From the NCBI GenBank assembly GCA_035504095.1, contig DATJSN010000040.1, forward strand, positions 1 through 47,118: DNA of 47,118 nucleotides. Reading direction: 5' to 3'. The notes below the pieces were generated by a model, which searched no databases, was not told the origin of the DNA, and saw only the letters and a list, made by a program, of their open reading frames with translations. Shown here in pieces: positions 3,001-41,124 of the stretch. Source of the DNA: Phycisphaerae bacterium (lineage in GTDB: Bacteria > Planctomycetota > Phycisphaerae > WQYP01). Made by a program: the position numbers and the translations under genes. Position 1 is the first letter of the stretch. The number at the start of each line of letters is the position of its first letter.

Positions 3001-3470
3001 CGCTGCCGCCGTCGACATCGAGATATTGCAGCGCAACAGTGTTGCCGACATCTCCGTCAAAAGACGTCAGGCCGGTGGTGTCCACCGTCAGGCCATCTGT
3101 CCCGGCGGCATTGCCGTCATTAATCGTTGAATCAAAGGTGATAGCGCCGCCATCGGTGTCCGCCAGCGTGGTCGTCGCCGTGATTAACACCGCGCCGCCA
3201 TAAATCTGGCCGCCCACATCCGTGGTCACGCCGGCGCCATTGATGTCGATGTCGCTGCCGAGATATACGCCGGTGTTGTCCACGTCAAGATATTGCAGCG
3301 CCGCAGAATTGCCGACTGATCCTTTAAAGTCGGTCAGGCCGGTGGTGTCCACCGTCAGGCCGTCTGTCCCTGCGGCATTGCCGTCGTCGATGGTCGATGT
3401 AAAGATAATATCCGCGCCATCGGTATCCAACAGCGAGATGGTCCCACCGATCAGCACCGGTCCGGTATAA
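1..3470. repeat. Tandem array of about 13 or more near-identical coding repeats of about 250 bp (about 83 aa, ...INDGNAAGTDGLTVDTTGLTDFKGSVGN...) inside TpsA. A longer super-period of about 1005-1026 bp is also visible, and the array continues off the left edge.
   Basis: The string gccgtcattaat(c/g)gttgaatcaaaggtgat recurs at about 85, 340, 590, 838, 1085, 1350, 1620, 1870, 2115, 2380, 2625, 2870 and 3120. ccgccggaatagcccatgccggtatc recurs at about 221, 1226 and 2252. Confidence 0.85.
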
Positions 3471-6439
3471 GTTTGTCCACCGCCGGAAGTATTCACGTCG
3501 CCGTTGAGCCTGATTTGGCCGACGGTGGTACTCAAGTCAACGTAACCGGCGGCCGAAGAGGCACCGATGGCGGAAATCGCGCCGATTTGCACGTTCCCCG
3601 CAGCGGAAACATTAACAAATCCCGCATTCCCATTCCCCTCATAACCATATCCGCCGTTGGTGTTGATGGCGCCGGAGACCGTAACCGTCCCAGCGGCACC
3701 AGTGGAGTTCAGCTTAACGTTGCCGCCGCCGCCGCCATAAGCGCCGCTGCCAAGATAACCTGCGCTGCCGCCAACTGCCGATATGTTGCCGGTTGATATG
3801 TCGCCAGCGGTTGTTATATGAATGTAATTTGCAGATCCGGCGGTGCCGTAATACGCATCGCCGCCCGATGCTGTTAAATCTCCGGTCGATACCGCGCCGC
3901 CGGCCGCGATTTTGATGTATCCAGCAGAACCACCTCCCTCATAACCATAACCGCCGCTGGTGTTGATGGTGCCTGTATTAATCGTCCCGGTCGCACCGGT
4001 GGAGCTCAATGTTACATTGCCGCCGCCGCCGCTATAAGCGCCGCCGCCATAAGCACCGCCGCTGCCACCAACTGCCGAGATGTCGCCGGTTGATATGTCG
4101 CCAGCGGTTGTAATCTGAATGAAACTTGCAGATCCGGCATTGCCGTAATACGAGCCACCGCCCGATGCTGTTAAATCTCCGGTCGATACCGTGCCACCGG
4201 CAGTGCTTTTGATATAACCCGCACTTCCGCCTCCCTCATAACCATATCCGCCGCTGGTGTTGATGGCGCCGGTGACGGTAACGGTACCGGCCACACCAGT
4301 GGAGTTCAGCGTAACGTTGTCGCCGCCGCCGCCATAAGCACCGCTGCCGAGATAACCTGCGCTGCCGCCGACCGCCGATATATCGCCGGTTGATATATCG
4401 CCAGCGGTTGTAATCTGAATGTAATTTGCAGATCCGGCATTGCCGTAATACGAGCCGCCGCCCGATGCTGTGAAATCTCCGGTCGATACCGTGCCGCTGG
4501 CAGTGATTTTGATGTAACCCGCAGACCCGCCTCCCTCATAACCATAACCGCCGCTGGTATTGATGGCGCCGGTGTTGATCGTACCGGCAGCGCCGCTGCT
4601 GGTCAGCGTTATATTTCCGCCCCCGCCGCCGTTACCAGCATTTGACGCGCCCCCAATCGCTGAAATATTGCCGACCGTAATGTTCCCCAAAGCCGTCAGA
4701 CCCACATTTCCCGCTGCATAGCCGCCTGTTGGACCATTGGTCGTGATGCCGTAATAACCACCGCCCCCATTGCTCGCGAACATGATATCCCCGCCGGTGG
4801 AATCAATCATGCAATTTCCGCCATTGGTAGTGATGTCATCATTAACTGTAATGTTGCTTCCGGCCATCAGGCTTACATTCAGTCCACCTGTTCCTGTCGG
4901 GGCTATCGTCACGCCGCTTTCGATAATAATTTCTCCCGCCGCATCAAGCGTCAGGGTCACCGTACTGCTCAGACTTGGATCGATATCCACTCCCGTTAAC
5001 ATCGTAATATTCCCGCTCTCGCCTCCCGAATTGCCGGTGGTAATCATTATGCTGGTCCCGCCGGTTAGATCGGTGTTGATTTGCCCGTCGGTGATTGTTG
5101 CGCCGCTGACGTTGGCATTGTAAGTTCCCGAACCCCCTCCTCCGCTAAAACCGCTGTAACTCGCCGCTCCCGAAGTGATCGTCACGTTAAACGGATCCAG
5201 TAACCATACCCCCGCCGCCCCACCCCCGGCTCCATCCGCCGTCACTGTAGCGCCGGGACTGACGTACAGCAGTTCGCCCGACGAATCGATTAGCCCGCCG
5301 TTCCCCTTAACCGTGGCGCTGGCGTTGAGCACTGCCGAGGCGCCGATGTAATCAAATTCACTTGCATCGGTATATCCGGTTGATGAAGCCGGGTCCGCCG
5401 TTACGCCGATGAGTATGCTGCCTCCGCCCATCGTCCCGCTCGCATCGATTGTTACCGGCGCATCCACAAAGGCGCCGCTGGCGTTTTTATTCACGCCAAC
5501 GCCGATATTCCCGCCGTTGATACTAACGGTTCCACCCGTGTTGCCGGGTCCTTGGTTGGCCGCGTTAAGTTTGCCGGAAACAAGTACTGTGGAAGCATCT
5601 CCATTTGCCGCAATGTTAATGTTGCTTGCCTGGACGGTTCCCGAAGTGTTGATGGCCAGCGAATACAGGTCACCGGCGCGAATGGTCACGTCGCCGCCTT
5701 GAGCGTTAATCGTACCGCTGTTATTTACTCCGGTCGTTTCCGACTTGCCGCCGGCAACTTGTACGACGATTGGGGACCCAAGCTTACTGACATAAACGTT
5801 GTTGCCGGCAGCCATCACCACCATGCCCTCGGGCGTAGCAATAGTGCCGCTATTGACGATATTCTGTCCTACAAAACTCACTGCACCGGCGTGAATCGTG
5901 CCGGCATTGATTACGGCTCCGGTTGCATTGGTGAAATTGTTGGTTCCGGAGAGAAAGTCGGCGTCAGACATGTGCGCTGCCGCGGCGTAAATCTGGCCTA
6001 CATTGACCACCGCGTCCCCACCGAATGTGACGCCCGCGGGATTCACAAAATAAACTATTCCATTGGCATTCAGATTGCCGTCAATCAGCGTAGGTGTTGG
6101 GCCGATGATTTTATTTAGAACAGTAGCGGAAGCCGATGGCTGAACGAAATCCACCGTATTTCCTTTGGGAATGTTGAATTGTTGATAATCGATGATTGAA
6201 TGATTTGCGGCGGTGATGGTCATCAGGTCACCAACCTGATCGAAACTTGCCTCGCCGGCAGCAACATGATCAACTACGATTGGTCCATTGGCATGGGCGT
6301 GGTCCAGGTTTGCCGAAAATGCCGCCACGGCGGCTGCAGCTGACAGTAAGATTGCTCTTTTGCGCAGCAGTCCAAACTTCGGAAGGAAGCTGGCTCGCGA
6401 TCTGTGTTTCGCGATCTTCGTTGTCTTAAGCGGCAACAT
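1..6439 (-). CDS. Giant two-partner-secretion exoprotein (TpsA-like adhesin/toxin), C-terminus beyond the left window edge. It has a signal peptide, an N-terminal TPS (haemagglutination-activity) domain, then a repeat-rich beta-helical passenger.
   Basis: I translated the minus frame by hand at three places and it is open: 6439 downward reads MLPLKTTKIAKHRSRASFLPKFGLLRKRAILLSAAAAVAAFSANLDHAHA (signal peptide). That runs into ...NIPKGNTVDFVQPSASATVLNKIIGPTPTLIDGNLNANGIVYFVNPAGVTFGG..., which fits the TPS-domain NPNGI / secretion-domain pattern. Around 3481-3610 and around 1-290 it is also open, reading VGNTTALQYLDVDTGMGYSGGTTDINGASVTTDSGGQTYGGAVLITTTTTLKD...INDGNAAGTD..., which resembles autotransporter-associated beta-strand repeats. 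The start codon is 27 nt downstream of, and in frame with, the TpsB stop at 6467-6469. The ORF track omits this gene because its stop lies outside the window. The plus-strand ORFs 3..230, 234..1235, 1239..2261, 2265..2711, 2730..3203, 3222..3470 and 3473..3796 are P/S/V-rich antisense readings of it. Confidence 0.75.
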   Translation of the reverse strand, partial: MLPLKTTKIAKHRSRASFLPKFGLLRKRAILLSAAAAVAAFSANLDHAHANGPIVVDHVAAGEASFDQVGDLMTITAANHSIIDYQQFNIPKGNTVDFVQPSASATVLNKIIGPTPTLIDGNLNANGIVYFVNPAGVTFGGDAVVNVGQIYAAAAHMSDADFLSGTNNFTNATGAVINAGTIHAGAVSFVGQNIVNSGTIATPEGMVVMAAGNNVYVSKLGSPIVVQVAGGKSETTGVNNSGTINAQGGDVTIRAGDLYSLAINTSGTVQASNINIAANGDASTVLVSGKLNAANQGPGNTGGTVSINGGNIGVGVNKNASGAFVDAPVTIDASGTMGGGSILIGVTADPASSTGYTDASEFDYIGASAVLNASATVKGNGGLIDSSGELLYVSPGATVTADGAGGGAAGVWLLDPFNVTITSGAASYSGFSGGGGSGTYNANVSGATITDGQINTDLTGGTSIMITTGNSGGESGNITMLTGVDIDPSLSSTVTLTLDAAGEIIIESGVTIAPTGTGGLNVSLMAGSNITVNDDITTNGGNCMIDSTGGDIMFASNGGGGYYGITTNGPTGGYAAGNVGLTALGNITVGNISAIGGASNAGNGGGGGNITLTSSGAAGTINTGAINTSGGYGYEGGGSAGYIKITASGTVSTGDFTASGGGSYYGNAGSANYIQITTAGDISTGDISAVGGSAGYLGSGAYGGGGDNVTLNSTGVAGTVTVTGAINTSGGYGYEGGGSAGYIKSTAGGTVSTGDLTASGGGSYYGNAGSASFIQITTAGDISTGDISAVGGSGGAYGGGAYSGGGGNVTLSSTGATGTINTGTINTSGGYGYEGGGSAGYIKIAAGGAVSTGDLTASGGDAYYGTAGSANYIHITTAGDISTGNISAVGGSAGYLGSGAYGGGGGNVKLNSTGAAGTVTVSGAINTNGGYGYEGNGNAGFVNVSAAGNVQIGAISAIGASSAAGYVDLSTTVGQIRLNGDVNTSGGGQTYTGPVLIGGTISLLDTDGADIIFTSTIDDGNAAGTDGLTVDTTGLTDFKGSVGNSAALQYLDVDNTGVYLGSDIDINGAGVTTDVGGQIYGGAVLITATTTLADTDGGAITFDSTINDGNAAGTDGLTVDTTGLTSFDGDVGNTVALQYLDVDGGSDINGASITTDSGGQTYGGAVLITATTTLTDTDAGNITFDSTINDGNTAGTDGLTVNTTGLTSFDGDVGGTTALQYLDVDGDSDINGAGITTDEGGQIYGGAVLITATTTLADTDAGNITFDSTINDGNAAGTDGLTVDTTGLTSFDGAVGGTTALQDLDVDNSSDINGAGVTTDSGGQTYGGAVLITAPTTLADTDAGNITFDSTINDGNAAGTDGLTVDTTGLTDFKGSVGNTAALEYLDVDTGTGYSGGTTDINGAGVTTDAGGQTYGGAVLITATTTLTDTNGGDITFDSTINDGNAAGTDGLTVDTTGVTSFDGDVGNTTALQYLEVDSSSDINGAGVTTDSGGQTYGSAVLITATTTLTDTDGGDITFDSTINDGNAAGTDGLTVDTTGLTDFKGSVGGTTALEYLDVDNSSDINGAGITTDSGGQTYGGAVLITATTTLTDTDGGNITFDATINDGNAAGTDGLTVDTTGLTDFKGSVGNSAALQYLDVDNTGVYLGSDIDINGASVTTDVGGQTYGGAVLITTTTTLKDTDAGNITFDSTINDGNAAGTDGLTVDTTGLTDFKGSVGNSAALQYLDVDTGMGYSGGTTDINGAGATTDSGGQTYGGAVLITATTTLTDTDGGDITFDSTINDGNAAGTDGLTVDTTGLTDFKGSVGNTAALKYLDVGNSSDINGAGITTDSGGQTYGGAVLITTTTTLKDTDAGDITFDSTINDGNAAGTDGLTVDTTGLTDFKGSVGNTAALQYLDVDGGSDINGAGITTDAGGQTYGGAVLITATTTLKDTDAGNITFDSMINDGNAAGTDGLTVDTTGLTSFDGDVGGTTALKYLDVDNSSDINGAGITTDSGGQTYGGAVLITATTTLTDADGGDITFDSTINDGNAAGTDGLTVDTTGLTDFKGSVGNTTALQYLDVDTGMGYSGGTTDINGASVTTDSGGQTYGGAVLITTTTTLKDIDAGNITFDSTINDGNAAGTDSLTVDTTGETDFKGDVGNT
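3520..4700. repeat. Second tandem array inside TpsA: four copies of a Gly-rich coding unit of about 300 bp (...GGYGYEGGGSAGYIKITASGTVSTGD...).
   Basis: ccctcataaccata(t/a)ccgccg(c/t)tggt(g/a)ttgatgg recurs at about 3640, 3935, 4235 and 4535, with long near-identical flanks. Confidence 0.8.
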
Positions 6440-6466: not shown

Positions 6467-8503
6467 TTAGTAGCTAATTGAAAACAAAAAATTAAACTGG
6501 CTCGATCCAGCGGATACGCCTCCCTGGCCAGTTGCTTCCGGACTCACGGGTGTCAAGGCAATGCCCCAGTCCACCAGGGCCGAAACGTTTTTCCATAGCG
6601 TGACCTGCGCCCCCACACCTGTGCTGATTAACGTCGCCCCCGCTTCATATGACTGTGGATGGCTTTGTCCCACTTCTCCTGCATCCACAAATGTGCTCAA
6701 TACCAGATCCCAATCCGGCTGGCCGTATGGTGTTGGTGGCGCGGTATAAAACGGTTGGCCCAGAAAAGTTGTTGGGTTTGGATTGACCGGAAACAGCCGT
6801 GGAATGTGCAGGTTGTATTGAATTGTGCCCCAAATGGCGCTATCACCTGCGACAATCGTCTGTGGATAACCGCGGACCGTAAATAGTCCGCCTATGACCG
6901 CCTCTTGCTGCGGAACCAGACGCTGGTCGAAAGCCTCCTGGCCGTTGATGCGGAACACAATTTCATTGGCCATTGTGCTGGTTCCGCTTGCGAAACTCTG
7001 CGGGAATAGCAAAGGTTCCAGATAGAAGGAAACTTCGTAATTACCTTGCAGAATTGCCCACGTCGGATCAGTGTTCAACCTCCCCAGGTTATTGAGTTGC
7101 GTTGAGCTTGAGGAAGTATATTGACCGAGCACCGTCAAATTTCCGTTTTGTTGAGATGTGTTGCCAACACGAGTCATCCTCAGCGTAAGATAAGGGTAAA
7201 GAAAGTCAGCTTCGCCGGTCTGTTGGAAAGCTACGTCATCGACATAAGAATACTCGTATTCTGCGCCCAGTACGCCGTAAAAAAATAGTTTATTAAACTG
7301 AGCAAGGGTCAGAATGACTTCAGCACCTCCTGAAGCGAGTTCGCCGTTTAAATTTGAATTGCCCAAACCGATATTGGACGCAGTGTATTGTTCATAGCCG
7401 CCATACATACGGCCTTGCAGTTGATTGATGCCAATAATTGGAAATTGGTATGAGGCACTAATATCATTCATTTTGGAAAATCCGGCAGTGGCATAACTAA
7501 GGTTAAGAATATCGTCGTGGCCGGTCAGTTCAGTATCGTTAAACCCGAACTGTTCCATCCATGGATTCGTTTGTTTTGTGCCGGTGTTGGACAACTGCGC
7601 GTAAGCCACCCATGGTTTTGATTGATTAACGAGGTAATCCAATGTCACTGAATCGACCTGATTGCCGGGCGAGATCGCGATGCTAACCCGCCGACTCGTC
7701 TGCTGATTCAGGAGCGATATGTAATCATCAAGAGCGTCTTCTTGAAGGAGATCTTTCGTTTGCATTTGGTTGGTACTGCTCGCCGGTTGGATTGGCGAAT
7801 GTTGCCGGATGAAGGCGGCCTGTGGATTGTTAATCACCTGCGTTCCTGACATCCCCGGTCCAGACGAAATCGTTCGAACGTCGGTCACAATTGCGGTGTG
7901 AATCACCAGATGTAAGAGCGTATCACCAGCAGGGCGCAAATCGCGTGGCCCACTAAAGTCTTTTGTTGAGACTTGAACATACAATCCGATGATGTGCCTT
8001 TGATGTATTGCCGCGACAATCTGAAGTTCGATGCTTTGCAACGCGCTGGAATAAAAACGATGCGGTATGTTTTGCGCGTTGAACTGCGCCAGCGTCATGG
8101 TACTCGATGGATATATGATTCCACGACTTTGAGCAGATGTTTTGACCGCGACATATCCGTCACGGCTCAACGCCAATTGGATCGGCAGGTCCATCAGTGT
8201 GGTTAGTGCTGGAAGAGCCTCGCGATCGTGCGCGTAACTTAACACGAATTGGCTGATGCTGTAGGCACGGCCGTCGTCCGGCTCCTGGGCGGGTGGAAGA
8301 ACATTGGAGGATGGAACATGCGATGGTGGTGTGCTTTGGGCAGTGGTGGAACCAATTGCCATTGCGGGTCCGCTGAAGGCGTTAAGAATGCCCGCCAGGG
8401 CTGCTGTCAGGAGAAACCCGGCGCCCCATCGTTTATATTTTTTGTAAATTGGGCTAGTCAAGACGCTTCGTCGCGGCCATTTTAACAAACGCTGTGCGTC
8501 CAT
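6467..8503 (-). CDS. TpsB outer-membrane transporter of the two-partner secretion system (ShlB/FhaC/HecB family, POTRA plus beta-barrel).
   Basis: 678-aa ORF with a signal peptide (GFLLTAALAGILNAFSGPAMA) and a long region rich in beta-strand-forming residues. It ends in an aromatic residue (…FSISY), as Omp85/TpsB barrels typically do. It is immediately upstream of, and co-oriented with, the TPS-domain exoprotein, which is the classic tpsB-tpsA order. Confidence 0.7.
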   Translation of the reverse strand: MDAQRLLKWPRRSVLTSPIYKKYKRWGAGFLLTAALAGILNAFSGPAMAIGSTTAQSTPPSHVPSSNVLPPAQEPDDGRAYSISQFVLSYAHDREALPALTTLMDLPIQLALSRDGYVAVKTSAQSRGIIYPSSTMTLAQFNAQNIPHRFYSSALQSIELQIVAAIHQRHIIGLYVQVSTKDFSGPRDLRPAGDTLLHLVIHTAIVTDVRTISSGPGMSGTQVINNPQAAFIRQHSPIQPASSTNQMQTKDLLQEDALDDYISLLNQQTSRRVSIAISPGNQVDSVTLDYLVNQSKPWVAYAQLSNTGTKQTNPWMEQFGFNDTELTGHDDILNLSYATAGFSKMNDISASYQFPIIGINQLQGRMYGGYEQYTASNIGLGNSNLNGELASGGAEVILTLAQFNKLFFYGVLGAEYEYSYVDDVAFQQTGEADFLYPYLTLRMTRVGNTSQQNGNLTVLGQYTSSSSTQLNNLGRLNTDPTWAILQGNYEVSFYLEPLLFPQSFASGTSTMANEIVFRINGQEAFDQRLVPQQEAVIGGLFTVRGYPQTIVAGDSAIWGTIQYNLHIPRLFPVNPNPTTFLGQPFYTAPPTPYGQPDWDLVLSTFVDAGEVGQSHPQSYEAGATLISTGVGAQVTLWKNVSALVDWGIALTPVSPEATGQGGVSAGSSQFNFLFSISY

Positions 8504-8780: not shown

Positions 8781-9800
8781 CTAGCTAAGGAACGAAGGAG
8801 CCGGCTTATCACCGGCTGAACGACATACAGTGAGATAATCACGCACTTGCTGTAGAAATTGCGGATTGAGTTCAAACGGAATGTCGCTTACCAGGGGCAT
8901 TCTCGCCAATCCGGCACGCAAACAGAACAAGGCCGCTGGTTTCGGTTCGCCAATAATCAAGTCAACAAAATCATTTCGATTATCCGTTTTGTCCTTCGGC
9001 GACCAATATTCTATCGCGGAAACCGGATAGGTTGCGCCAAGCATTGAATGAATTAAGGAACACCACATACGGGCGGAAAACCACTTTTGCTGATCGTTCA
9101 ACGGCAGTCGTAATGATTCAGTGGGGGCATCAGCCGGGTCGTGCGATATTGCGTCAATCGCCCTTTGAGTCGCGTAGAAAATGCGTGAAGCAGCAACGGG
9201 TTCCTCATTGGCAAATAGCATTGCTACCTGATCGCCGGTCATGGAGTGGTTCACTTTTGTGTTGACCGGTGTCAGTTGTTTGGCAGCAATAGTTTGAATC
9301 TTTTGTTGTGTTGCGCTTACTTTTGTCCGCACTTCATCAGCGGAATCGGTGTTTTGCAGCGAATCACGCAATTCCAGAAGCAACGGGCAGATTTGCCGCT
9401 CTACTTCGGCTGGACTGAAACCACGTGACTGCAGGGCCACCACCAGCGGATAAAGACTCCTGCCCTTGCCGTCCGTGGAAGCGGAAAGTGTTGCCCAAAA
9501 ATAATGGCTATCACGACTGTATACTAAGAGATGATTGAATTCCGGGAGCCGTTGATCGACGGACAGTTGTGCCCAGGTACCTGAATCAATATTTCTTCCA
9601 ATTCCCTCCACGTATATGATGCGTTTGAATTCCTGCATGTCACGGCTTTGTTCCCCAATATCGTCCATGTGATCATCCCAGGCGGGATGCTTGCCGAACA
9701 CGCTTAAGGCCAGCAAGGGCTCTGTGGACATAGCGGAGAAAATTCGAGATTTAAACTTCTGGAGGAAATCGCCCAATTGATCACCTTTTTCGACTAACAA
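8781..9800 (-). CDS. tagF: TagF-like type VI secretion-associated protein (DUF2094 / ImpM family).
   Basis: The N-terminal FGKHPAWDDHMDD resembles the TagF FYGKLPxRGDF motif, and ...DGKGRSLYPLVVAL resembles the conserved GRxFPL block. The gene is translationally coupled just downstream of tssM, as in tssL-tssM-tagF operons. Confidence 0.5.
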   Translation of the reverse strand: MLVEKGDQLGDFLQKFKSRIFSAMSTEPLLALSVFGKHPAWDDHMDDIGEQSRDMQEFKRIIYVEGIGRNIDSGTWAQLSVDQRLPEFNHLLVYSRDSHYFWATLSASTDGKGRSLYPLVVALQSRGFSPAEVERQICPLLLELRDSLQNTDSADEVRTKVSATQQKIQTIAAKQLTPVNTKVNHSMTGDQVAMLFANEEPVAASRIFYATQRAIDAISHDPADAPTESLRLPLNDQQKWFSARMWCSLIHSMLGATYPVSAIEYWSPKDKTDNRNDFVDLIIGEPKPAALFCLRAGLARMPLVSDIPFELNPQFLQQVRDYLTVCRSAGDKPAPSFLS

Positions 9801-9812
9801 CTCGGTGGAATT

Positions 9813-12800
9813 CTATTCCTTTTCATGCGGCCAGTCAGATAGTTGTGGCAGGGACCTGGAGAAAATCATCTCAAGGTGCGTCATATGGTCCTTATGAAAT
9901 TGATCTTGTATATGAATAGTAATCGTCCATGTCATTCCATCTTTGGTTGTCCCGTTATTCAGGACCAGCAACTTTAAAGCCGCCCAGGGACCCCGGAAAT
10001 CCATGGTCACCGGAATGGCTCCGGCCACCGTCGGGTCTGTTTCAAAAAAATTCAGCTTGAGCGACGCCTGGGGTTGGTCCGGTATCGTGAGTTGACCCAG
10101 ACTGTCATCAGAGAGGTTGTCAAAATTTGCTATTCCCATGAGTTTGGCTTTCTCTTGCTCCGCACCCATGTCTGTAACGGTCATATAGGGCCAGATCGCT
10201 GATACCGTGTTGTTTGGATCTTGTTTGATATCCTTTGTAATAAACAGCTGACAGGTTAGCGCAGGCTCTGCTCCATTGCCAATGATAGCATCCAGTATCT
10301 TATAAATAGCGGCCACATTCGCGCCTGTTAAGTCAAATTTCTGGTAAGAGATATTCCCCTGCAGAACACTCCACCAATGGTTGAAATCGTCGTTATTGGT
10401 ATCCGCTACTTCTAAAGAAGACGTCGATGAGTCGAGCAGGTTATGAAAGTCCGGCGATAGCGTATTCAAATCGTAGAGCGACCATTCATTCTGCGGCGAA
10501 TCGGCGGAAGCGGGGATATATAAAGGAAAAGCCGGATTTTCCCATATCTTCGTCAGAACAACATCAGCCCGCTGTTGGCTTTCTTTGGCCAGGGTTCTTA
10601 AACCGCTCAGTGTTAACTGGCAGATATAGTTCGAGGCAAAATTCGGCGTTGTTGATGATGGTACGAAGATATAGTCGTTATATACTTTATCCGGCAATTC
10701 AGTTAACAGCGTTTGTCTGGCAACGGCGTAATCGTTCGCCAGTTGCGTCCATTGATTCAGCTTGTTCTGCACGTCATTTGCAAAGGACGTCTCGTTGAGG
10801 AGATTAAGACCCATTTTTATGTTGTTTTTAGCGTCGCTGATCCTGTTACTTAGTGAGTCTGGAATCGCGACCGCTTCCAGTGAACCGTTTACTTGCGCGC
10901 CCAGACTTTCCAGAGCGGCCAAAAGATGGCCTTCCTGTGGTAACTGGCTCAGATAGTTCGTCCATTTTCCGTCAGGTACATCGATCTTCAAACCGTCATC
11001 TAAAGTTGACAGCCAATAGACAAAGTAGGCTTGCCGGTAAGCGTCAAAGGCCGAGTTGGCTTGTTGATACTTAACGGAAAGATTGCTGGCATCAGCAATT
11101 GAATTGTAATTGTTTATTCCGCTGACGGCGTCAGAAAGCAGTTTTCCACACTGATACCATCCATCAAGCAGTTTCGCCGCTGGCAAGGGATCAAACGCGG
11201 GATTGAATGTTCCACCGGCATCGGAGGTGAATGGTATTGAAGGCTTGACTGGCGTTGTTGATCCGTTGACAGACGCCTGTTGTACTAATGATTCAATGGA
11301 TGCCGCATCGGCTGGAGCCTGACGAATGGCCAGGCCGATGGCCTGTCCGTATCGATATGACTCAATCAATGTCAGCGCTTTGAGTGCCGCTTGAATTGCT
11401 TCACTATTGTATGAAGCGTTAGCTTCCGAACCGGCGGCTTCAATCGTGTTCTTGGTCTGCTCAATCAGCGTTTCGGTTTGGGGCAGTTGGTCGGTGCTGA
11501 ATTCCTCCAGCCATCCTTTGATTTGCATAAGCGATGTCGGATCGGCGGGAGTATTGACCAAATTCGCAAGCGACTGATACATCGCCTGCCGCTGCCATAT
11601 CTCCAGGTCGGTCCCCGCCGGGGAAAGAAATTTTTGATCCAAATCAGCAAATTGCGGGTCGGCTTCTGTAGCGCTATTGGTTATTGCTGTTTGCAGGCTA
11701 TTCCACGATTGCTGGAGTGTTCCCGCCTGTGGCATCGAATTATCCATTGATTTAAACCAACCTGCGGCCTGTTCCAGGCGGTCCCACACCTGCAGTCGAT
11801 TTTGATTTAAAGCCGAGGCATAGTTCAGGTAAGAAATGGTAAGAGTGCCGAATTTTCCCAGCGCCGGCAAATTAGCACGAACTTGTGCGGCTGAAGTGGC
11901 CAATTCTTGCAGCAGCACCACAAGTTTGTTGTAAGACGCAGAGTCGGCGCCGTCGGTTGGAGTATATGCCGCGGCGACATTCATCATCTGACCCTCTGTC
12001 GCCTCATAATTTTCCAAAGCTGTCTCAAGATTCATGAGATGCTGTATATTCTTGTTTCCCGCCTTAACTATATTGTTTTCCCCATTAATGACGCTCTGAA
12101 TACCATTGGCAATGGAGTCCGCCGGATCCGCGGATTGGATTATGCTTTGCAGAGCCGACGACCACTGTTGATCCGGTGTATAAAGCGACCGAATGATTTT
12201 CTGGTTCAGAACGCTTTGATACTGCTTGTAGCTTTGGTAATCAGTCGGAGATAAAACGTAAGCGACCAGATAATCGATATTTGCCCGACTGTTCTCAGAC
12301 GCGTATGAGGTATCTTGAGGGTAATAAGCCAGATGCGCCAAATCAATTAATTCGCACAGGGCATCGGTACGCACCTTAAGATCCATTGGCGTCGCGGATT
12401 GTTGATCCAATGGTTCAGCGGAAAGCTTTGATTCACACGCCTGAATGATGGGCAACAGGGCTTCATCATTATAAATTTTCATGAATGCCTGGTGTTGTTG
12501 TTGATTGATCTTGTCGCCAAAGGCCAGAGAAATGGGCCGAAATATCCAGGGGATTTGAATATCTTTGCGGACAAGCTCGAATCCATCATTGTAAAAATCG
12601 GCCAGACGGCTTTCATTTGCTTCAATGGTATGCTTGCCGTTGTACCCGTAATTGGAGCCGTTATCGGAATCGTGAACGATCATTGCCATGTAATCGGGAT
12701 TATTCGACGTGTAAATCTGCGCGGCGACCTGCCAATATTGACGCGGATATCCCACGCTGTTTGTCAATTCGAAAAAAGCGTAAAAAGTGGATGCGAGTAG

Positions 12801-14192
12801 AATACCAACGGCCGCAAAGCCACTTACGAGCACCGCAATCTTGCGACGGCTCTGAAGTTTCTTGGCGTTGTTGGCACGCGTGACCAATCCATGTTCTTTG
12901 AATATTTTCTGAACGAACAGGTCACGCAGAAAATAGGCACGATCGCGCCGCCACACGCCACTCGACGGGAGCGCGTCAATGGACACCCCCAACGCCTGGG
13001 CCAGATCAGCATCTAACGCTTTACCCTCCGACAAAGAAGACGTGAAATATATGCCTCTTAGAAACAACGGTTTGGCCGACCATTCCCCAACGGCAAAAAT
13101 AATCTCCAAGTACTGTTTCAGCCGAGATGTAATTTGTAAGAGCGCCTCTGGAAATGCGTATAGCGTATCCATCTGATCCATCCGGCGCATATTGGGATCT
13201 TCTGTTTGGGCAGGATGGGCTAAGAGCAATCCTCTGCGTTCGGCCAGTTGGTCGCGTACTTGTTTAAGATAACTATCCAGTTTTTCGACATTGAATGGAA
13301 CATCAAGCGGCTCGGGATTGGACCATCCCATGATCTGATGTTGCAGGCGCGGATCCGTCAGATCATCAAAAAATTGACTAAAGCCCGGCAGATAGTCGGA
13401 TTTGGTTATTAAAACAAATACCGGAAAGCGCACACCCAGCGTGCGTTGAATATTAACAAGTTGCTGAGAAATTTTACCCGCGTTTTTAGCAATTACTTCG
13501 GCGGAATCCGTCAACAGACTCTCGGCGGGTATCACCAGTAACATGCCGTTAATCGGACAATTAGGCCTGTACGAACGAAGCAATTTAAGAAATTCCTGCC
13601 ATTCGCTGCTGGTGCCGGGCGCAACCTCCTCAAACATCAGCCGACCGGCGGTGTCGAGAATGACAGCATGGTTCGTAAACCACCAATTCATGTTGACTGT
13701 ACCGCCGGCGCCCTGGAGTTGATCGTGTAAACCAGGCGGAAATCCTACAGCGGAATGACGGATCGCTTCGGTCTTGCCCGACCCCGGCTGACCGACCAGA
13801 ACAAACCACGGTAAGCTATAAAGGTCTTTACCTGCCGCGCGAAATTTTTCTATGCCAGCAGCAAAAACGCGGCGTAACGAATCCAGATCCGCTAATTTTT
13901 TCGCTTCGCTGACCTGCTGTGGCGTCGACCCGGCGTTGGCCGCCAGGACTTTTTCCATCGGTTTGGATTTGCTTTTATTCCACCATCCCAGGATCACCTG
14001 AAAAAGCGCATACGCGACAATCGCGACAACCAGCAAGATCACCAGCAACAGCAATAATTGACCATGTCCCTCAACGGCCAGTGCGATTGCGCCCACCAGG
14101 CCCGCGCATACAACCGCGATTGCAGCTATCTTCTGAATGATGGACAGGTTTCCAACAAACGACAGGAAATCCATAGTCTTATTCACCTGCAA
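9813..14192 (-). CDS. tssM: Type VI secretion system membrane subunit TssM (IcmF family), 1459 aa.
   Basis: Two N-terminal TM helices, then a cytoplasmic P-loop NTPase domain (Walker A, VLVGQPGSGKTEAI). A third TM helix follows at about residues 440-465 (KIAVLVSGFAAVGILLASTFYAFFEL), then a very long periplasmic region. This is the canonical TssM/IcmF topology. Confidence 0.75.
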   Translation of the reverse strand: MQVNKTMDFLSFVGNLSIIQKIAAIAVVCAGLVGAIALAVEGHGQLLLLLVILLVVAIVAYALFQVILGWWNKSKSKPMEKVLAANAGSTPQQVSEAKKLADLDSLRRVFAAGIEKFRAAGKDLYSLPWFVLVGQPGSGKTEAIRHSAVGFPPGLHDQLQGAGGTVNMNWWFTNHAVILDTAGRLMFEEVAPGTSSEWQEFLKLLRSYRPNCPINGMLLVIPAESLLTDSAEVIAKNAGKISQQLVNIQRTLGVRFPVFVLITKSDYLPGFSQFFDDLTDPRLQHQIMGWSNPEPLDVPFNVEKLDSYLKQVRDQLAERRGLLLAHPAQTEDPNMRRMDQMDTLYAFPEALLQITSRLKQYLEIIFAVGEWSAKPLFLRGIYFTSSLSEGKALDADLAQALGVSIDALPSSGVWRRDRAYFLRDLFVQKIFKEHGLVTRANNAKKLQSRRKIAVLVSGFAAVGILLASTFYAFFELTNSVGYPRQYWQVAAQIYTSNNPDYMAMIVHDSDNGSNYGYNGKHTIEANESRLADFYNDGFELVRKDIQIPWIFRPISLAFGDKINQQQHQAFMKIYNDEALLPIIQACESKLSAEPLDQQSATPMDLKVRTDALCELIDLAHLAYYPQDTSYASENSRANIDYLVAYVLSPTDYQSYKQYQSVLNQKIIRSLYTPDQQWSSALQSIIQSADPADSIANGIQSVINGENNIVKAGNKNIQHLMNLETALENYEATEGQMMNVAAAYTPTDGADSASYNKLVVLLQELATSAAQVRANLPALGKFGTLTISYLNYASALNQNRLQVWDRLEQAAGWFKSMDNSMPQAGTLQQSWNSLQTAITNSATEADPQFADLDQKFLSPAGTDLEIWQRQAMYQSLANLVNTPADPTSLMQIKGWLEEFSTDQLPQTETLIEQTKNTIEAAGSEANASYNSEAIQAALKALTLIESYRYGQAIGLAIRQAPADAASIESLVQQASVNGSTTPVKPSIPFTSDAGGTFNPAFDPLPAAKLLDGWYQCGKLLSDAVSGINNYNSIADASNLSVKYQQANSAFDAYRQAYFVYWLSTLDDGLKIDVPDGKWTNYLSQLPQEGHLLAALESLGAQVNGSLEAVAIPDSLSNRISDAKNNIKMGLNLLNETSFANDVQNKLNQWTQLANDYAVARQTLLTELPDKVYNDYIFVPSSTTPNFASNYICQLTLSGLRTLAKESQQRADVVLTKIWENPAFPLYIPASADSPQNEWSLYDLNTLSPDFHNLLDSSTSSLEVADTNNDDFNHWWSVLQGNISYQKFDLTGANVAAIYKILDAIIGNGAEPALTCQLFITKDIKQDPNNTVSAIWPYMTVTDMGAEQEKAKLMGIANFDNLSDDSLGQLTIPDQPQASLKLNFFETDPTVAGAIPVTMDFRGPWAALKLLVLNNGTTKDGMTWTITIHIQDQFHKDHMTHLEMIFSRSLPQLSDWPHEKE

Positions 14193-14230
14193 AAACCGCT
14201 TTACTCATTTTGGCGGTTCGACAAAAAACT

Positions 14231-14962
14231 TTATTTTTGCAAAATTTTATCCAAAGCATTATTTAACTGGCCGATACTTTGGTGGAAAAGATAAAAATTC
14301 GCGATCAACAGTGTCACAAAGCACACCAACAACACCACGGCAATGCCGAAAAGTTTTACCCCGGGCGGTTCGATAAGATTAGCGGTGTTAACGTGCTCAT
14401 AATTTTCAGGACAAATTTTTCGCATATCCGTGTCCTTCGCACCGGCATAAAGCCGCGCACGAACCTCTTTGATCTTTTTCTTCAAATACTCGGGTTGGTC
14501 TCTGTAGGAACCGGTAAAGCCTAAACCCAAACAGGCAGAGAATATTTTTAATCGCCATATAGCCGCCGGCGATTTGTCCTTCAGTGTTTCGTCCAACAAG
14601 ACGAAAAATTTCTCATTGCCGTTCGGTTCGTTGTAATCGGATGCGATTTCTTTAAACTTTTTGGAAATCGTATAGCCGCCTTCTTTTATGGTAAAGTCGG
14701 CGAAAAAGATCAGGGGCTGTTCAATTTTTTCAAATTCTACGGCTAATTCATCAGAGGCAGTTGCCCCGTTTTTCATCTTTGCTAACAGTTCATTGATGTC
14801 AGCCCGCACTTGATCGGCGTCTATTTGTGCGCCATTACGTGCTGAGCGGTTCAGGCGGCAAAAATATTGAAAGAATGGTTCTGTAAGGTCCAGAAGCGTC
14901 AGTCGCGCTTCGCTGGCGTGCAGAAAATGAAAAAATGGATCGTTCAGATCTACAAGCGTCAT
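14231..14962 (-). CDS. tssL: TssL / DotU-family protein (T6SS membrane-complex subunit); cytoplasmic domain plus a single C-terminal TM anchor.
   Basis: 243 aa, a size typical for DotU. There is a single C-terminal TM helix (LFGIAVVLLVCFVTLLIANFYLF). It lies immediately upstream of tssM on the same strand. My sequence-level recognition here is moderate and rests on architecture and position. Confidence 0.55.
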   Translation of the reverse strand: MTLVDLNDPFFHFLHASEARLTLLDLTEPFFQYFCRLNRSARNGAQIDADQVRADINELLAKMKNGATASDELAVEFEKIEQPLIFFADFTIKEGGYTISKKFKEIASDYNEPNGNEKFFVLLDETLKDKSPAAIWRLKIFSACLGLGFTGSYRDQPEYLKKKIKEVRARLYAGAKDTDMRKICPENYEHVNTANLIEPPGVKLFGIAVVLLVCFVTLLIANFYLFHQSIGQLNNALDKILQK

Positions 14963-15025
14963 AAACTATCCTGTTCCGTTAATGAGTGCGTGACGTTGGT
15001 CCATCGACGCGCAGTCAGGCATTGT

Positions 15026-15991
15026 TTAGATTACCCTATCCACGAATTCACGAACAATCTCCCTGATCTCATGATCCACGTCCGCTTCATCAAGATTTTC
15101 TGCAGCCAGTTCACAGTATTTTTCCCAACACAAAATTTTTATAGATGCCAGAAACTTTTTGTGTTCGGTTCGAACAGCGGCTTCAATTTCTGCCGGTGCG
15201 AATTTCTTTCCGTAACGAGATGAAAATTGGCGCCCCGTTTCCCCCACGGAAGATAGCAACGCCGCATTAAGTTTTCGAAGCTTTTCCAATTCGTTTGACA
15301 CCTGCTCGCGGGATACTTCCGGATCGTTGGCCATGAAACGGCTTATAAGACGTTGCAGCGGCGCTCCACGATGCATTTTCGATCCCGGTGCGATGATCTT
15401 CCACATGTTCCACGCAATTTGATCGATGCTCAACGTTAAGTCGGAAAGTATGAGGGCCAGTTCCAGCACATGGCCCGCATGGGGATGTAAACCATCTTCC
15501 AATTGGAGACGGTTTCGAAATTTAGACAGTGGTTCGCCAGGCCAGTCCGGACCGGATCGTGGAATAAGGCCGGCATCAGCCAATCGTTCAATTAGAGTTT
15601 CTTTTAGCGCCTGCGGCAATTTGGGGGCCAGCTTGCAAAGTTGTTGCACCAGAAAGAATGGGTCCTGCTGATCCATCGCGCCGGCATTGGAATTCGCCTC
15701 TGTTTGGCTTTGCACGGATGCGTTAACCTGTTGTCGGGTGATATCATTGCCATCCCAACGCGGAAATTGTTCAGCAAGGGCGGAGCAAAATTCCGGTCTT
15801 TGGGTTGGAGCAATTACCGCCATCGACCGCTTGATTTCATTGGAAATAAATTCCTGTCGAGCCTGAAGCGGTTCCTGCATCATGTCCGCTTGAAGGGCTC
15901 GGATTCGGTTGGCAAGCCGCGCTGCCTCAGGCAAAATGTCTGAATCCATCTCTGTCATATGATCTCGTTGACGTAATACTGGATCGCGCAA
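15026..15991 (-). CDS. Hypothetical all-alpha soluble protein (321 aa), first gene of the tssL-tssM-tagF operon, occupying the position tssK usually holds. No recognisable family.
   Basis: Long ORF with a 63-bp gap to tssL on the same strand. No signal peptide and no TM helix. Rich in helix-forming residues. Confidence 0.55.
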   Translation of the reverse strand: MRDPVLRQRDHMTEMDSDILPEAARLANRIRALQADMMQEPLQARQEFISNEIKRSMAVIAPTQRPEFCSALAEQFPRWDGNDITRQQVNASVQSQTEANSNAGAMDQQDPFFLVQQLCKLAPKLPQALKETLIERLADAGLIPRSGPDWPGEPLSKFRNRLQLEDGLHPHAGHVLELALILSDLTLSIDQIAWNMWKIIAPGSKMHRGAPLQRLISRFMANDPEVSREQVSNELEKLRKLNAALLSSVGETGRQFSSRYGKKFAPAEIEAAVRTEHKKFLASIKILCWEKYCELAAENLDEADVDHEIREIVREFVDRVI

Positions 15992-16290: not shown

Positions 16291-16902
16291 ATGGTCGATA
16301 AAACCCGCGTTTTGTTTATAGCAGCAGATCCAGTGGACGTTGATTCATCGAAATTGAACGAAGAAATTCAGGAAGTAGAGCAACATATTCGAACGCCTGG
16401 TTTTCTCGAAGCTTTTGATTTAACTTCTAAATGGGCTCTTCGCTCTCAGGACCTGATCCAGGCCTTCCAGGATGTTCGTCCGGATATTGTTCACATCAGC
16501 GGCCATCGCTGCCGGATGTCTGAGTTTGTACTTGAGGACGCTCGTGGTATAGCCAAACCGGTTTCAGAATCCGCCCTGACCGAGCTATTCAGTCATGCGA
16601 AAGATAATGCCCGGCTGGTATTGCTTAATATGTGTCATTCGGGGCACCTGGCAAAGGCCATCAGCAACGTAATTGACTGTGCGATTGGAATAAACCAGCG
16701 TATTGACGACAAAGAAGCGGTTGTCTTCTCATCTCAATTTTATGGAGCACTGGCCTTGGGTCAGTCCGTCAGGAATTCATTTGAGCAGGGGCGAACCGCA
16801 CTCATGGTGGATGGAATTCCCGAAGAAAAGACCCCAATGCTTTTCATTCGTCCGGGCGCTGATGCCCTTCAGATTTCTTTTAGCAACCATAAGTCGAATT
16901 AG
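16291..16902 (+). CDS. Minimal CHAT-like / caspase-fold cysteine protease domain protein (203 aa).
   Basis: His and Cys motifs in caspase-hemoglobinase-fold order and spacing: ...DIVHISGHR... (His, about residue 70) and ...LVLLNMCHSGH... (Cys, about residue 115). These resemble the HxxGHG ... C(x)SG motifs of CHAT/C14 peptidases. There are no additional domains. Confidence 0.55.
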   Translation: MVDKTRVLFIAADPVDVDSSKLNEEIQEVEQHIRTPGFLEAFDLTSKWALRSQDLIQAFQDVRPDIVHISGHRCRMSEFVLEDARGIAKPVSESALTELFSHAKDNARLVLLNMCHSGHLAKAISNVIDCAIGINQRIDDKEAVVFSSQFYGALALGQSVRNSFEQGRTALMVDGIPEEKTPMLFIRPGADALQISFSNHKSN

Positions 16903-25743: not shown

Positions 25744-25839
25744 GGCAGGAGCACCTCCGTCGGGCCTAATTTGGTGGCTGACTGCAAAATATATTCCATG
25801 CAGGCAAATTGAGCAAATTAATTCCGGCTAAACCGCTTG

Positions 25840-39903: not shown

Positions 39904-39914
39904 ACAAATTTATG

Positions 39915-40968: not shown

Positions 40969-41124
40969 ATACCTTGAAGCTATCATGACCAATATGATTT
41001 GGGATAATGCCACAAACGAATTGCTATATTACCGTTTGCCAAACATAACATATGGGCTGCGCAAGATAATTGGCGACATTAATCAGCCATTATACAAATG
41101 GGAACTCCCACTTGGAGTACATTT

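What the first reader, a model, noticed from the sequence alone, without database searches (positions are those of the whole stretch)
8781..15991. Isolated T6SS membrane-complex-like module with no sheath or baseplate genes, wedged between a TPS operon and a CHAT protease gene
A four-gene operon on the minus strand (novel 321-aa protein, TssL/DotU-like, TssM/IcmF with a clear P-loop and 2+1 TM topology, TagF-like) reproduces the tssK-tssL-tssM-tagF order of canonical T6SS clusters. The rest of the 47 kb window has none of the other core genes (TssA/B/C/E/F/G, Hcp, VgrG, ClpV, TssJ, Fha). In the usual tssK slot there is a shorter, unrecognisable helical protein.

This could simply be one piece of a T6SS split across loci. 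Alternatively, a TssL/TssM/TagF trio plus a new partner could be a reduced or repurposed envelope machine, in the way IcmF/DotU were co-opted by T4bSS. It is co-oriented with, and only 277 bp upstream of, a two-partner secretion operon encoding a giant exoprotein. The TssM is unusually long (1459 aa), with about 1000 periplasmic residues.
Basis: partly seen in the sequence, partly recalled or inferred. Interest (0 to 1): 0.75.

Follow-up and report, generated by a model that had tools for sequence, protein, structure and literature searches.

The report
T6SS membrane-complex operon missing tssK
This is the membrane-anchor operon of a type VI secretion system typical of Planctomycetota, but this lineage has cleanly lost the tssK gene that normally links the anchor to the firing apparatus, while the remaining genes, and a two-partner secretion pair just downstream, are still kept intact by selection.

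Summary
The four co-oriented genes exist as described. TssL/DotU and the N-terminal 480 residues of TssM, including the P-loop and the 2+1 TM layout, are firm hits. The 339-aa protein is probably a remote TagF.

The "novel 321-aa protein" does not replace TssK. It belongs to a large unannotated family (671 clusters at 50% identity) related to the C-terminal domain of TagH/Fha, without the FHA domain. In every relative it sits upstream of a normal tssK.

The ancestral unit is X–tssK–tssL–tssM–Y. In most relatives it lies inside a complete T6SS cluster, collinear with the canonical tssF–tssG–tagH–tssK–tssL–tssM–tagF. In the window's Phycisphaerae clade it stands alone among housekeeping genes. 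Only the window and two sister lineages have lost tssK, leaving a 63-bp spacer. No relocated orthologue was found in the protein database.

The four genes and the downstream TpsB remain under purifying selection (dN/dS 0.13–0.22). A TpsB–TpsA pair follows the module in 10 of 42 relatives.

I could not determine whether sheath and baseplate genes lie elsewhere in this genome. This is a new variant of a known system, of moderate interest.

The parts
15026..15958 (-). X: a cytoplasmic, all-helical protein of 310 aa. It is an FHA-less relative of the TagH/Fha C-terminal domain. The longest possible ORF extends to 15991.
   Evidence: - The family has 671 clusters at 50% identity, all about 300-315 aa.
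- Of 150 members, 71 hit PF20232 T6SS_FHA_C (best E 1.4e-6) and 9 hit TIGR03354 TagH.
- hhalign against three TagH proteins gives 85.6% probability and E 5.6e-6, aligning X 207-292 with TagH 412-489.
- X lies between tssG and tssK in about 20 relatives, which is the tagH slot of canonical clusters.
- The AF2 model has pLDDT 88 and is all helices. X has no TM segment.
- The window's own copy has no direct Pfam hit.
14963..15025 (-). The 63-bp spacer between X and tssL, at the site where relatives carry a 453-aa tssK.
   Evidence: - Every other locus with enough sequence has tssK here.
- Only the window, L001/L002 and L113-L115 lack it.
- tblastn finds no tssK remnant in the window.
- The spacer is homologous in the window, L001 and L113.
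14231..14962 (-). TssL/DotU, short form: 243 aa with one C-terminal TM segment and no OmpA-like domain. It has a 20-residue N-terminal extension (14903-14962) that repeats its own N-terminus.
   Evidence: - PF09850 scores 66 bits and TIGR03349 scores 43 bits, the latter below its cutoff.
- The TM segment starts at aa 202.
- The extension is present only in the three tssK-less lineages.
- Its 60 nt match the following 60 nt at 33 of 60 positions. Random 60-mers from the window give a mean of 15 and a maximum of 29.
9813..14174 (-). TssM: two TM segments, a cytoplasmic P-loop domain, a third TM segment, and a divergent periplasmic region of about 990 aa. The longest possible ORF extends to 14192.
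   Evidence: - PF14331 scores 183 bits.
- TIGR03348 scores 278 bits over aa 49-486 only, against a cutoff of 388.
- Topology and Walker A position match canonical TssM.
- The periplasmic part matches no IcmF model. hhalign against canonical TssM gives only E 0.02, at a C-terminal GPWA motif.
8781..9776 (-). Y: a TagF-like protein of 331 aa from the TTG at 9776. The NCBI record starts it at 9731 (316 aa). The longest possible ORF extends to 9800.
   Evidence: - It is always the gene after tssM.
- The motifs FGKHPGW[DN]DH and SxDGKGRxxYP parallel TagF's FGKLPxxGDF and PSxDRVGRRFPL.
- Of 36 family members, 11 hit PF09867 TagF_N weakly (best E 0.027), and it is the only recurrent family.
- An HMM of the Y family ranks a genuine TagF first among 1014 proteins, at E 0.02.
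- hhalign is not significant, and a profile search of the PDB found nothing.
6467..8503 (-). TpsB (ShlB/FhaC-type Omp85 transporter), 277 bp downstream of Y.
   Evidence: - PF03865 scores 31 bits against a cutoff of 22.7.
- It is 33% identical over its full length to the TpsB that follows the module in L025.
- dN/dS is 0.13-0.20.
1..6439 (-). TpsA-type giant exoprotein. The first 2146 aa are in the window and the gene runs off its left end.
   Evidence: - A single ORF covers this span.
- Residues 57-384 are 43% identical to the L025 TpsA over the region that hits PF05860 TPS at E 5.5e-24.
- The window's copy itself has no PF05860 hit at E <= 0.001.

Best explanation
**What it is.** This is the membrane-complex operon of a Planctomycetota-type T6SS (subtype i-like), in a Phycisphaerae MAG.

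**How the ancestral unit works.** The ancestral unit is X-tssK-tssL-tssM-Y.
- TssL and TssM form the inner-membrane-anchored complex that spans the envelope.
- TssK docks the TssEFG-VgrG baseplate onto that complex.
- X is a TagH/Fha-type assembly factor that has lost, or never had, the FHA domain.
- Y is a TagF-type protein that holds assembly in check, by analogy with TagF sequestering TagH.

**What happened in this lineage.** In the window's clade the unit lies apart from the tail and baseplate genes. In the window's own sub-lineage tssK was cleanly deleted. TssL gained a 20-residue N-terminal repeat.

**My commitment.** The four proteins still assemble a regulated TssL-TssM envelope complex, and it most likely still serves a T6SS whose other parts lie outside the window.

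**Shown:** the homologies, the gene order, the deletion and the purifying selection.

**Inferred:** the protein interactions, the TagH/TagF-like regulation, and the existence of tail genes elsewhere.
For: **Identity of the parts**
- TssL and TssM.
- X is related to the TagH C-terminal domain.
- Y is TagF-like.

**Source organism**
- Y is 100% identical to a Phycisphaerae MAG protein, VMG59_05005.
- All 13 genome loci found are Planctomycetota or Phycisphaerae MAGs.

**Context in relatives**
- The order X-K-L-M-Y holds in every relative that has enough sequence.
- tssF-tssG lie directly upstream of X in about 20 loci.
- TssA, TssB, TssC, TagJ, TssE, ClpV and VgrG are nearby in others.
- The order is collinear with canonical tssE-F-G-tagH-(tssJ)-tssK-tssL-tssM-tagF on plasmids.

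**Selection**
- dN/dS is 0.13-0.22 for X, TssL, TssM, Y and TpsB among the three tssK-less lineages, at dS 0.25-0.54. All ORFs are intact.

**Literature**
- TagF represses assembly by sequestering TagH, and TagH promotes assembly (PMC13584744).
- T6SS occurs in Planctomycetota (bioRxiv 10.64898/2026.06.16.732483).
Against: - TssK is essential in studied T6SSs, and it is missing here.
No extra orthologue at 65-85% identity appeared, as a relocated copy would.
- No T6SS core gene lies within 10 kb of the module in any locus of the window's clade, nor within 31 kb on the X side in the window.
- TssJ is absent, and the TssM periplasmic domain matches no IcmF model.
- dN/dS for X and TssL is about twice that of a tssK-bearing sister pair at similar dS. 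For X it is 0.18 against 0.076, and for TssL 0.15-0.18 against 0.083. This would fit the loss of a binding partner.
- The rest of the genome could not be searched.
Confidence: 0.5

Rival explanations
1. The module is a repurposed machine that no longer needs a contractile tail. After tssK was lost, the TagH-like, TssL, TssM and TagF-like proteins were kept for another envelope function. That function may be tied to the co-inherited TpsB-TpsA pair, for example scaffolding, gating or regulating export or display of the giant exoprotein. IcmF and DotU were co-opted in a similar way as stabilisers in type IVB secretion.
For: - tssK is deleted in three lineages, yet all four genes and TpsB are intact with dN/dS 0.13-0.22.
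- No relocated tssK orthologue was found in 5.8 billion protein clusters.
- No tail or baseplate genes lie near the module anywhere in the window's clade.
- TpsB starts 277-284 bp after Y in all three tssK-less lineages. The same layout occurs in the distant L025, and a TPS pair follows Y in 10 of 42 informative loci.
- The TssL N-terminal repeat arose in exactly this lineage.
Against: - No functional link between TssL/TssM and two-partner secretion is known. I found none in the paper library.
- The TPS linkage also occurs in loci that have tssK, tssF and tssG (L025, L028, L031). The linkage therefore predates the loss and fits plain co-regulation of two contact-dependent weapons.
- A paralogous or very divergent tssK and a tail cluster elsewhere in the genome are not excluded.
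Confidence: 0.28
2. The module is a decaying remnant. The T6SS was inactivated when tssK was deleted, and the remaining genes are drifting toward loss.
For: - tssK is missing.
- dN/dS for X, TssL and TssM is about 1.5-2.4 times that of the tssK-bearing sister pair L007-L026.
Against: - All ORFs are full length in three lineages that have diverged to dS 0.25-0.54.
- dN/dS is 0.13-0.22, far from 1.
- The Walker A motif and the TM layout are intact.
Confidence: 0.08
3. The genes are an IcmF/DotU pair belonging to a type IVB (Dot/Icm-like) secretion system rather than to a T6SS.
For: DotU and IcmF homologues without sheath genes are what a T4BSS locus would show. There are weak NCBIfam hits to IcmF_IVB (34 bits) and IcmH_DotU_IVB (17 bits).
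Against: - Both hits are far below their cutoffs of 1000 and 50. The T6SS TssM model scores 278 bits.
- Relatives carry the same genes inside clusters with tssK, tssF, tssG, tssB/C, clpV and vgrG.
- No Dot/Icm genes are in the window.
Confidence: 0.02

Closest known systems
Canonical T6SS-i membrane-complex and regulator block, tagH(fha)-(tssJ)-tssK-tssL-tssM-tagF. Examples are the Pseudosulfitobacter, Parasedimentitalea and Paraburkholderia plasmid clusters fetched here, and the P. aeruginosa H1-T6SS (the latter from my own knowledge).
   Same: - The gene order and strand are the same.
- TssL has a DotU domain.
- TssM has the same 2+1 TM layout, P-loop and IcmF-related N-terminal domain.
- The first gene is related to the TagH C-terminal domain.
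- The last gene carries TagF-like motifs.
   Different: - tssK is deleted.
- No tssJ is present.
- X lacks the FHA domain.
- No PpkA/PppA kinase or phosphatase genes are nearby.
- The TssM periplasmic domain is about 270 aa longer and matches no IcmF or IcmF_C model.
- TssL is the short form, without a peptidoglycan-binding domain.
- Y is about 100 aa longer than typical TagF.
- The block stands alone among housekeeping genes.
The X-tssK-tssL-tssM-Y unit found in Planctomycetota (including Phycisphaerae and Sedimentisphaerales) and at least one Kiritimatiellae MAG. This is the family the window belongs to.
   Same: X, TssL, TssM and Y are orthologous, at 24-90%, 29-88%, about 30-88% and 27-90% identity respectively. 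Their order is the same, and a TpsB-TpsA pair is often downstream.
   Different: - All other members have tssK.
- Most non-clade members have tssF-tssG directly upstream and sheath, TssA or VgrG genes nearby.
- The window's clade has none of these within 10 kb.
- The window's sub-lineage also lacks tssK and has the TssL N-terminal repeat.
IcmF/DotU (IcmF/IcmH) of type IVB secretion systems
   Same: These are homologous TssM-like and TssL-like proteins that work without a contractile sheath. They serve as a precedent for co-option.
   Different: The window proteins score far better against T6SS models than against T4BSS models. Their relatives lie in T6SS clusters, and no Dot/Icm genes are present.

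Membership tests
TssL / DotU | DotU domain (PF09850) above the gathering score | tested here: met
   66.2 bits against a cutoff of 27, covering aa 23-219. The NCBIfam TIGR03349 hit is below its cutoff: 42.9 against 89.95.
TssL / DotU | Single C-terminal transmembrane anchor | tested here: met
   The hydropathy peak is 2.84 at aa 202-220 of 243.
TssM / IcmF (T6SS) | IcmF-related N-terminal domain with a Walker A motif between TM2 and TM3 (2+1 TM topology) | tested here: met
   PF14331 scores 183 bits. Walker A is at about aa 127. TM segments lie at 15-33, 39-57 and 445-463, as in five canonical TssM proteins.
TssM / IcmF (T6SS) | Periplasmic IcmF-related and IcmF_C (TssJ-binding) domains; full-length match to TIGR03348 above its cutoff | tested here: not met
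   There are no PF06761 or PF06744 hits. TIGR03348 scores 277.7 bits, below its cutoff of 388, and matches only model positions 31-466. hhalign of the periplasmic region against canonical TssM gives E 0.02 and 2.4% probability.
TagF | TagF_N domain (PF09867) | tested here: inconclusive
   - The window's Y has no hit.
- Of 36 family members, 11 hit weakly (best E 0.027), and TagF_N is the only recurrent family.
- In the reverse HMM search, genuine TagF proteins rank 1st (E 0.02) and about 5th (E 0.15) of 1014.
- hhalign gives 6% probability.
- Both TagF signature motifs are present.
TagF | Encoded directly downstream of tssM | tested here: met
   This holds in the window and in every related locus, and in four canonical clusters.
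TagH / Fha | N-terminal FHA (phosphothreonine-binding) domain | tested here: not met
   No FHA hit appears in the window's X, and FHA is not among the 25 families most often hit by the 150 members. The AF2 model is entirely helical.
TagH / Fha | T6SS_FHA_C C-terminal domain (PF20232) | tested here: inconclusive
   - Of 150 family members, 71 hit PF20232 (best E 1.4e-6), but the window's copy does not.
- Nine members hit TIGR03354.
- hhalign of the family profile, with the window sequence as reference, against three TagH proteins gives 85.6% probability and E 5.6e-6.
TagH / Fha | Encoded between tssG (or vgrG) and tssK | tested here: met
   This holds in about 20 related loci and in canonical clusters. 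In the window itself the flanking tssG and tssK are absent.
Complete T6SS (13 core genes) | tssA-G, tssK, hcp, vgrG and clpV present with tssL and tssM | tested here: not met
   Only tssL and tssM are present in the 47-kb window. Absence from the whole genome cannot be tested with these tools.
Two-partner secretion (TpsB/TpsA) | ShlB/FhaC-type transporter next to an exoprotein with an N-terminal TPS domain | tested here: met
   TpsB hits PF03865 at 31.2 bits against a cutoff of 22.7. The window's TpsA has no direct PF05860 hit. It is 43% identical (E 5e-73) to the L025 TpsA across that protein's PF05860 region.
Type IVB IcmF/DotU | Scores above the NF038226 and NF038228 cutoffs; Dot/Icm neighbours | tested here: not met
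   The scores are 34 bits against 1000 and 17 bits against 50. There are no Dot/Icm genes in the window.

The most novel reading that the evidence does not exclude
A TagH-like/TssL/TssM/TagF-like complex that has lost TssK is maintained by selection as an envelope machine that needs no sheath or baseplate. It is functionally coupled to the TpsB-TpsA pair that is always found directly downstream in this lineage. This would be a second independent co-option of TssM/TssL, after IcmF/DotU in type IVB secretion.
Probability: 0.25. Interest if true: 0.8.

Novelty: new variant of a known kind. Interest (0 to 1): 0.42.

Why it matters
**Annotation.** Two large families of "hypothetical" proteins can now be named. 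X has 671 clusters at 50% identity, and Y has at least 374 clusters at 90% identity. X is an FHA-less TagH-type protein and Y is a TagF-type protein, in a T6SS subtype of Planctomycetota that has barely been studied. A TagH relative without its phosphothreonine-reading domain, with no kinase nearby, suggests that the TagH-TagF switch can work without threonine phosphorylation.

**The tssK loss.** TssK is regarded as indispensable, so a lineage that deletes it yet conserves its membrane partners for a long time is a natural experiment. Either the membrane complex has a function of its own, or the baseplate can dock by another route.

**The TPS linkage.** A two-partner secretion pair sits beside this T6SS unit in about a quarter of loci. 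That points to coordinated use of two contact-dependent systems.

If the tail genes turn out to lie elsewhere in the genome, the locus is an ordinary split cluster with an odd deletion.

Tried and rejected
1. An exact look-up of the TssM ORF from its TTG start found nothing.
2. AF2 on X with a 16-sequence alignment gave an unusable model, pLDDT 49. It was repeated with 150 sequences and reached pLDDT 88.
3. Foldseek of the good X model against the PDB gave no match with E <= 0.001; the best was E 1.8. The AFDB library was not available.
4. A profile search of PDB sequences with Y returned only coiled-coil noise.
5. Metagenome scans seeded with the broad X alignments failed because no stretch was conserved enough. 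The Y motif FGKHPGW worked instead.
7. I tried to extend the window's own contig past TpsA through TpsB and Y look-ups. These returned only short ENA contigs, so the gene after TpsA remains unseen.
8. I considered whether the 20-residue TssL extension is a leftover of the tssK 5' end. It matches tssL's own 5' end better: 33 of 60 nt, against 23-26 of 60 for tssK and a null maximum of 29. I rejected the tssK origin in favour of a tssL duplication.
9. The T4BSS reading was rejected on scores and on the context of relatives.
10. Promoter and terminator scans were at chance level overall. One 10/12 sigma-70-like site lies in the Y-tpsB spacer.
11. I did not search for sheath genes with TssC. Several hundred closer relatives would have filled the 120 rows shown, so I spent the last search on TssK instead.

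Full report
**What is in the window**

On the minus strand there is one run of co-oriented genes:
- X, 15026-15958
- tssL, 14231-14962
- tssM, 9813-14174
- Y, 8781-9776
- tpsB, 6467-8503
- a tpsA that starts at 6439 and runs off the left end of the window after 2146 codons

The spacers between these genes are 63, 56, 36, 277 and 27 bp. A 203-aa gene with a borderline CHAT hit (24.2 bits against a cutoff of 24) lies divergently upstream.

The rest of the window is housekeeping or unrelated:
- a metallophosphoesterase and an SPFH protein
- two aldose epimerases
- serS, secDF, yajC, tgt and nuoFG
- a sigma/Sel1 protein
- a PIN toxin pair
- a NotI-like restriction-modification pair

tblastn with TssA, B, C, E, F, G, K, ClpV and VgrG taken from related loci finds nothing in the window.

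Y is 100% identical to protein VMG59_05005 of a Phycisphaerae MAG.

**The two firm assignments**

The 243-aa protein is a short-form TssL/DotU. It hits PF09850 at 66 bits and has one C-terminal TM segment.

The large protein is a TssM. Its evidence:
- PF14331 scores 183 bits.
- TIGR03348 matches over aa 49-486.
- Walker A is at about aa 127.
- The TM layout is 2+1, as in five canonical TssM proteins taken from plasmids.

Its periplasmic part of about 990 residues matches no IcmF or IcmF_C model. Against canonical TssM it aligns only faintly, at a C-terminal GPWA motif (E 0.02). This long, divergent periplasmic region is shared by all relatives, at 964-1058 aa against about 720 aa in canonical TssM. 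It is a family trait, not a peculiarity of this locus.

**X is not a TssK substitute**

A word-indexed search found only 15 relatives of X. A full HMMER search of 1.84 billion representatives found 671 clusters, 236 of them at E <= 1e-30 and nearly all 300-315 aa long.

In every relative with enough sequence, X is followed by a normal 453-aa tssK (PF05936), then tssL, tssM and Y. X therefore sits one slot upstream of tssK.

In about 20 metagenomic loci, tssF and tssG lie directly upstream of X. The resulting order, tssF-tssG-X-tssK-tssL-tssM-Y, is collinear with the canonical tssE-tssF-tssG-tagH-(tssJ)-tssK-tssL-tssM-tagF seen on annotated plasmids. X occupies the tagH slot.

The sequences agree with this placement:
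- Of 150 family members, 71 hit PF20232, the C-terminal domain of the T6SS FHA protein (best E 1.4e-6).
- Nine members hit TIGR03354 TagH, which is the most frequently hit NCBIfam model.
- hhalign of the X profile against three TagH proteins gives 85.6% probability and E 5.6e-6, aligning X 207-292 with TagH 412-489.

The window's own copy is too divergent to hit directly. X has no FHA domain. With a 150-sequence alignment AlphaFold gives a confident all-helical model (pLDDT 88), which has no counterpart in the PDB.

**Y is probably a remote TagF**

- Y is always the gene after tssM.
- It carries FGKHPGW[DN]DH, present in 117 of 120 relatives, and SxDGKGRxxYP. These parallel TagF's FGKLPxxGDF and PSxDRVGRRFPL.
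- TagF_N is the only Pfam family that recurs among members, in 11 of 36, but weakly (best E 0.027).
- In a reverse HMM search, genuine TagF proteins rank first and about fifth among 1014 proteins, at E 0.02 and 0.15.
- hhalign is not significant.

I treat the assignment as likely but not proven.

**The module belongs to a real T6SS lineage**

Scanning metagenomes with the Y motif gave 459 matching stretches, of which 80 loci were kept. Clustering the flanking ORFs and scanning representatives with Pfam showed TssF, TssG, TssA, TssB, TssC, TagJ (ImpE), TssE, ClpV and VgrG next to the unit in many loci.

Named sources are Planctomycetota, Phycisphaerae, Phycisphaerales and Sedimentisphaerales, plus one Kiritimatiellae MAG. 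T6SS is reported in Planctomycetota.

**What is special in the window's clade**

X of the window is 47-64% identical to its closest relatives that carry tssK. Those are 13 species-level genomes plus metagenomic contigs. In all of them the five-gene unit sits among housekeeping genes, and no T6SS core gene lies within 10 kb. So the unit is separate from the tail genes across the whole clade.

**What is special in the window's own sub-lineage**

Only the window, L001/L002 (about 89% amino-acid identity) and L113-L115 (about 85%) lack tssK.
- The X-tssL spacer is 63 bp in the window and holds no tssK remnant.
- TssL in these three lineages, and in no other, has a 20-residue N-terminal extension. 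The extension repeats TssL's own N-terminus: 33 of 60 nt match, against a null maximum of 29.
- A profile search with the sister clade's TssK recovered seven clusters at 76-99% identity and five at 61-63%. Below these come only hits at 57% or less. Nothing sits where a relocated orthologue would be expected.

This is evidence for true loss. The limits are incomplete assemblies and the possibility of a divergent paralogue.

**Selection**

Among the three tssK-less lineages dS is 0.25-0.54 and all ORFs are intact. A tssK-bearing sister pair, L007-L026, has similar dS of 0.54-0.68.

| Gene | dN/dS, tssK-less lineages | dN/dS, L007-L026 |
|---|---|---|
| X | 0.16-0.19 | 0.076 |
| TssK | deleted | 0.031 |
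| TssL | 0.15-0.19 | 0.083 |
| TssM | 0.14-0.22 | 0.106 |
| Y | 0.15-0.19 | 0.191 |
| TpsB | 0.13-0.20 | not computed |

The genes are clearly still constrained. X, TssL and TssM are about 1.5-2.4 times more relaxed than in the sister pair, while Y is not. This would fit loss of a binding partner. It rests on few pairs and no formal test.

**The TPS neighbour**

- The window's TpsB is a full-length orthologue (33% identity) of the TpsB that follows Y in the distant L025.
- The window's TpsA N-terminus is 43% identical to the L025 TpsA across that protein's Pfam TPS domain.
- Of 42 non-redundant loci with at least 3 kb after Y, 10 have a TpsB-TpsA pair downstream. In six of them it starts within 1.5 kb. 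Two more loci have it upstream of X.
- The pair also occurs in loci that have tssF-tssG upstream and tssK in place (L028, L031), and in L025 tssA follows TpsA.

The linkage is therefore old and recurrent, and it predates the loss of tssK. I found no paper that describes it.

**How it most likely works**

From what is known of the families, TssL and TssM form the inner-membrane-anchored channel complex. TagH promotes its assembly, and TagF blocks assembly by sequestering TagH (PMC13584744).

I infer that X and Y do the same here, without phosphothreonine signalling. X has no FHA domain, and I saw no recognisable PpkA or PppA genes near the unit.

In relatives, TssK would dock the baseplate. In the window's lineage that link is gone. 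My probabilities are:
- about 0.5 that the complex still serves a T6SS whose other parts, and some form of adaptor, lie outside the window
- about 0.28 that it has a tail-independent role, possibly with the TPS pair
- about 0.08 that it is decaying
- about 0.02 that it is a T4BSS IcmF/DotU pair

The remainder is left unassigned.

**Verdict**

The central interpretation, a new protein in the tssK slot of a self-contained four-gene module, is wrong. The locus is a new variant of a known system: a Planctomycetota-type tagH-like/tssL/tssM/tagF-like operon with tssK deleted. The open question is whether tail genes exist elsewhere in the genome, and it can be answered with the full MAG.

Noticed in passing
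L007 2823-9745 (minus strand), L010, L026, L024 1-1881, L040 14891-20901, L066, L075, L091, L096 and others: Three further genes recur beside the X-K-L-M-Y unit in at least 15 relatives.
- A 1444-2100-aa protein with a C-terminal FGE-sulfatase domain and a kinase-like N-terminal motif (FGGYELVREIHRSGLGAV).
- A 165-190-aa lipoprotein with a lipobox, about the size of TssJ, with no Pfam hit.
- A protein of about 650 aa with no Pfam hit.

They may be the PpkA-like and TssJ-like parts of this T6SS subtype. None is present in the window.
   Followed up: partly
L088 11030-12577 (minus strand); also L030, L045, L067, L069, L070, L089: A conserved 515-aa ORF opposite the module combines a TssB-like segment (aa 30-139) with a TssC-like core (aa 209-507, aligning to TssC 71-375). 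It lacks the TssC C-terminal domain, so it looks like a single-chain sheath-like protein.
   Followed up: partly
L001 10928-11308: The X-tssL spacer of the closest relative holds an insert of about 310 bp bounded by perfect 21-bp inverted repeats (AGCCTCTAACAAAATGAGGCG). It looks like a MITE. The window lacks it.
   Followed up: no
L107 (Sphingomonas plasmid NZ_CP155750) 1-6680; L106 21238-22737: In a proteobacterial plasmid, a gene for a protein with a filamentous-haemagglutinin N-terminal domain and a 1039-aa CHAT protein lie a few kb upstream of tssK-tssL-tssM-tagF. Another plasmid has a caspase-family gene near its T6SS. This echoes the TPS and CHAT genes that flank the window's module.
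   Followed up: no
window 16291-16902 (+): The 203-aa CHAT-like protein is much shorter than the 289-position Pfam model and only just reaches the cutoff. It keeps candidate His (HISGH) and Cys (NMCHSG) motifs. It is conserved next to the module in L001 (90% identity, dN/dS 0.26) but is replaced by a YhdP/DUF748 gene in L113. It is therefore not a fixed part of the module.
   Followed up: partly
window 42187-43936 (minus strand), within 39000-44000: A NotI-like restriction endonuclease and a D12-class adenine methyltransferase sit in a low-GC patch (0.42-0.45, against about 0.53 around it). This is probably an acquired restriction-modification island.
   Followed up: no
window 24538-27060 (minus strand) and 36335-37107 (minus strand): There are two tandem aldose 1-epimerase paralogues, one of which has a weak, sub-threshold TAT-signal hit. 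Separately there is a PIN-domain/DUF6364 toxin-antitoxin-like pair.
   Followed up: no
window 1-6000: GC is 0.57-0.61 across tpsA, against 0.47-0.49 across the X-tssL-tssM-Y-tpsB block and about 0.53 elsewhere. The plus-strand ORFs listed at 234-3203 are shadow ORFs inside tpsA.
   Followed up: no
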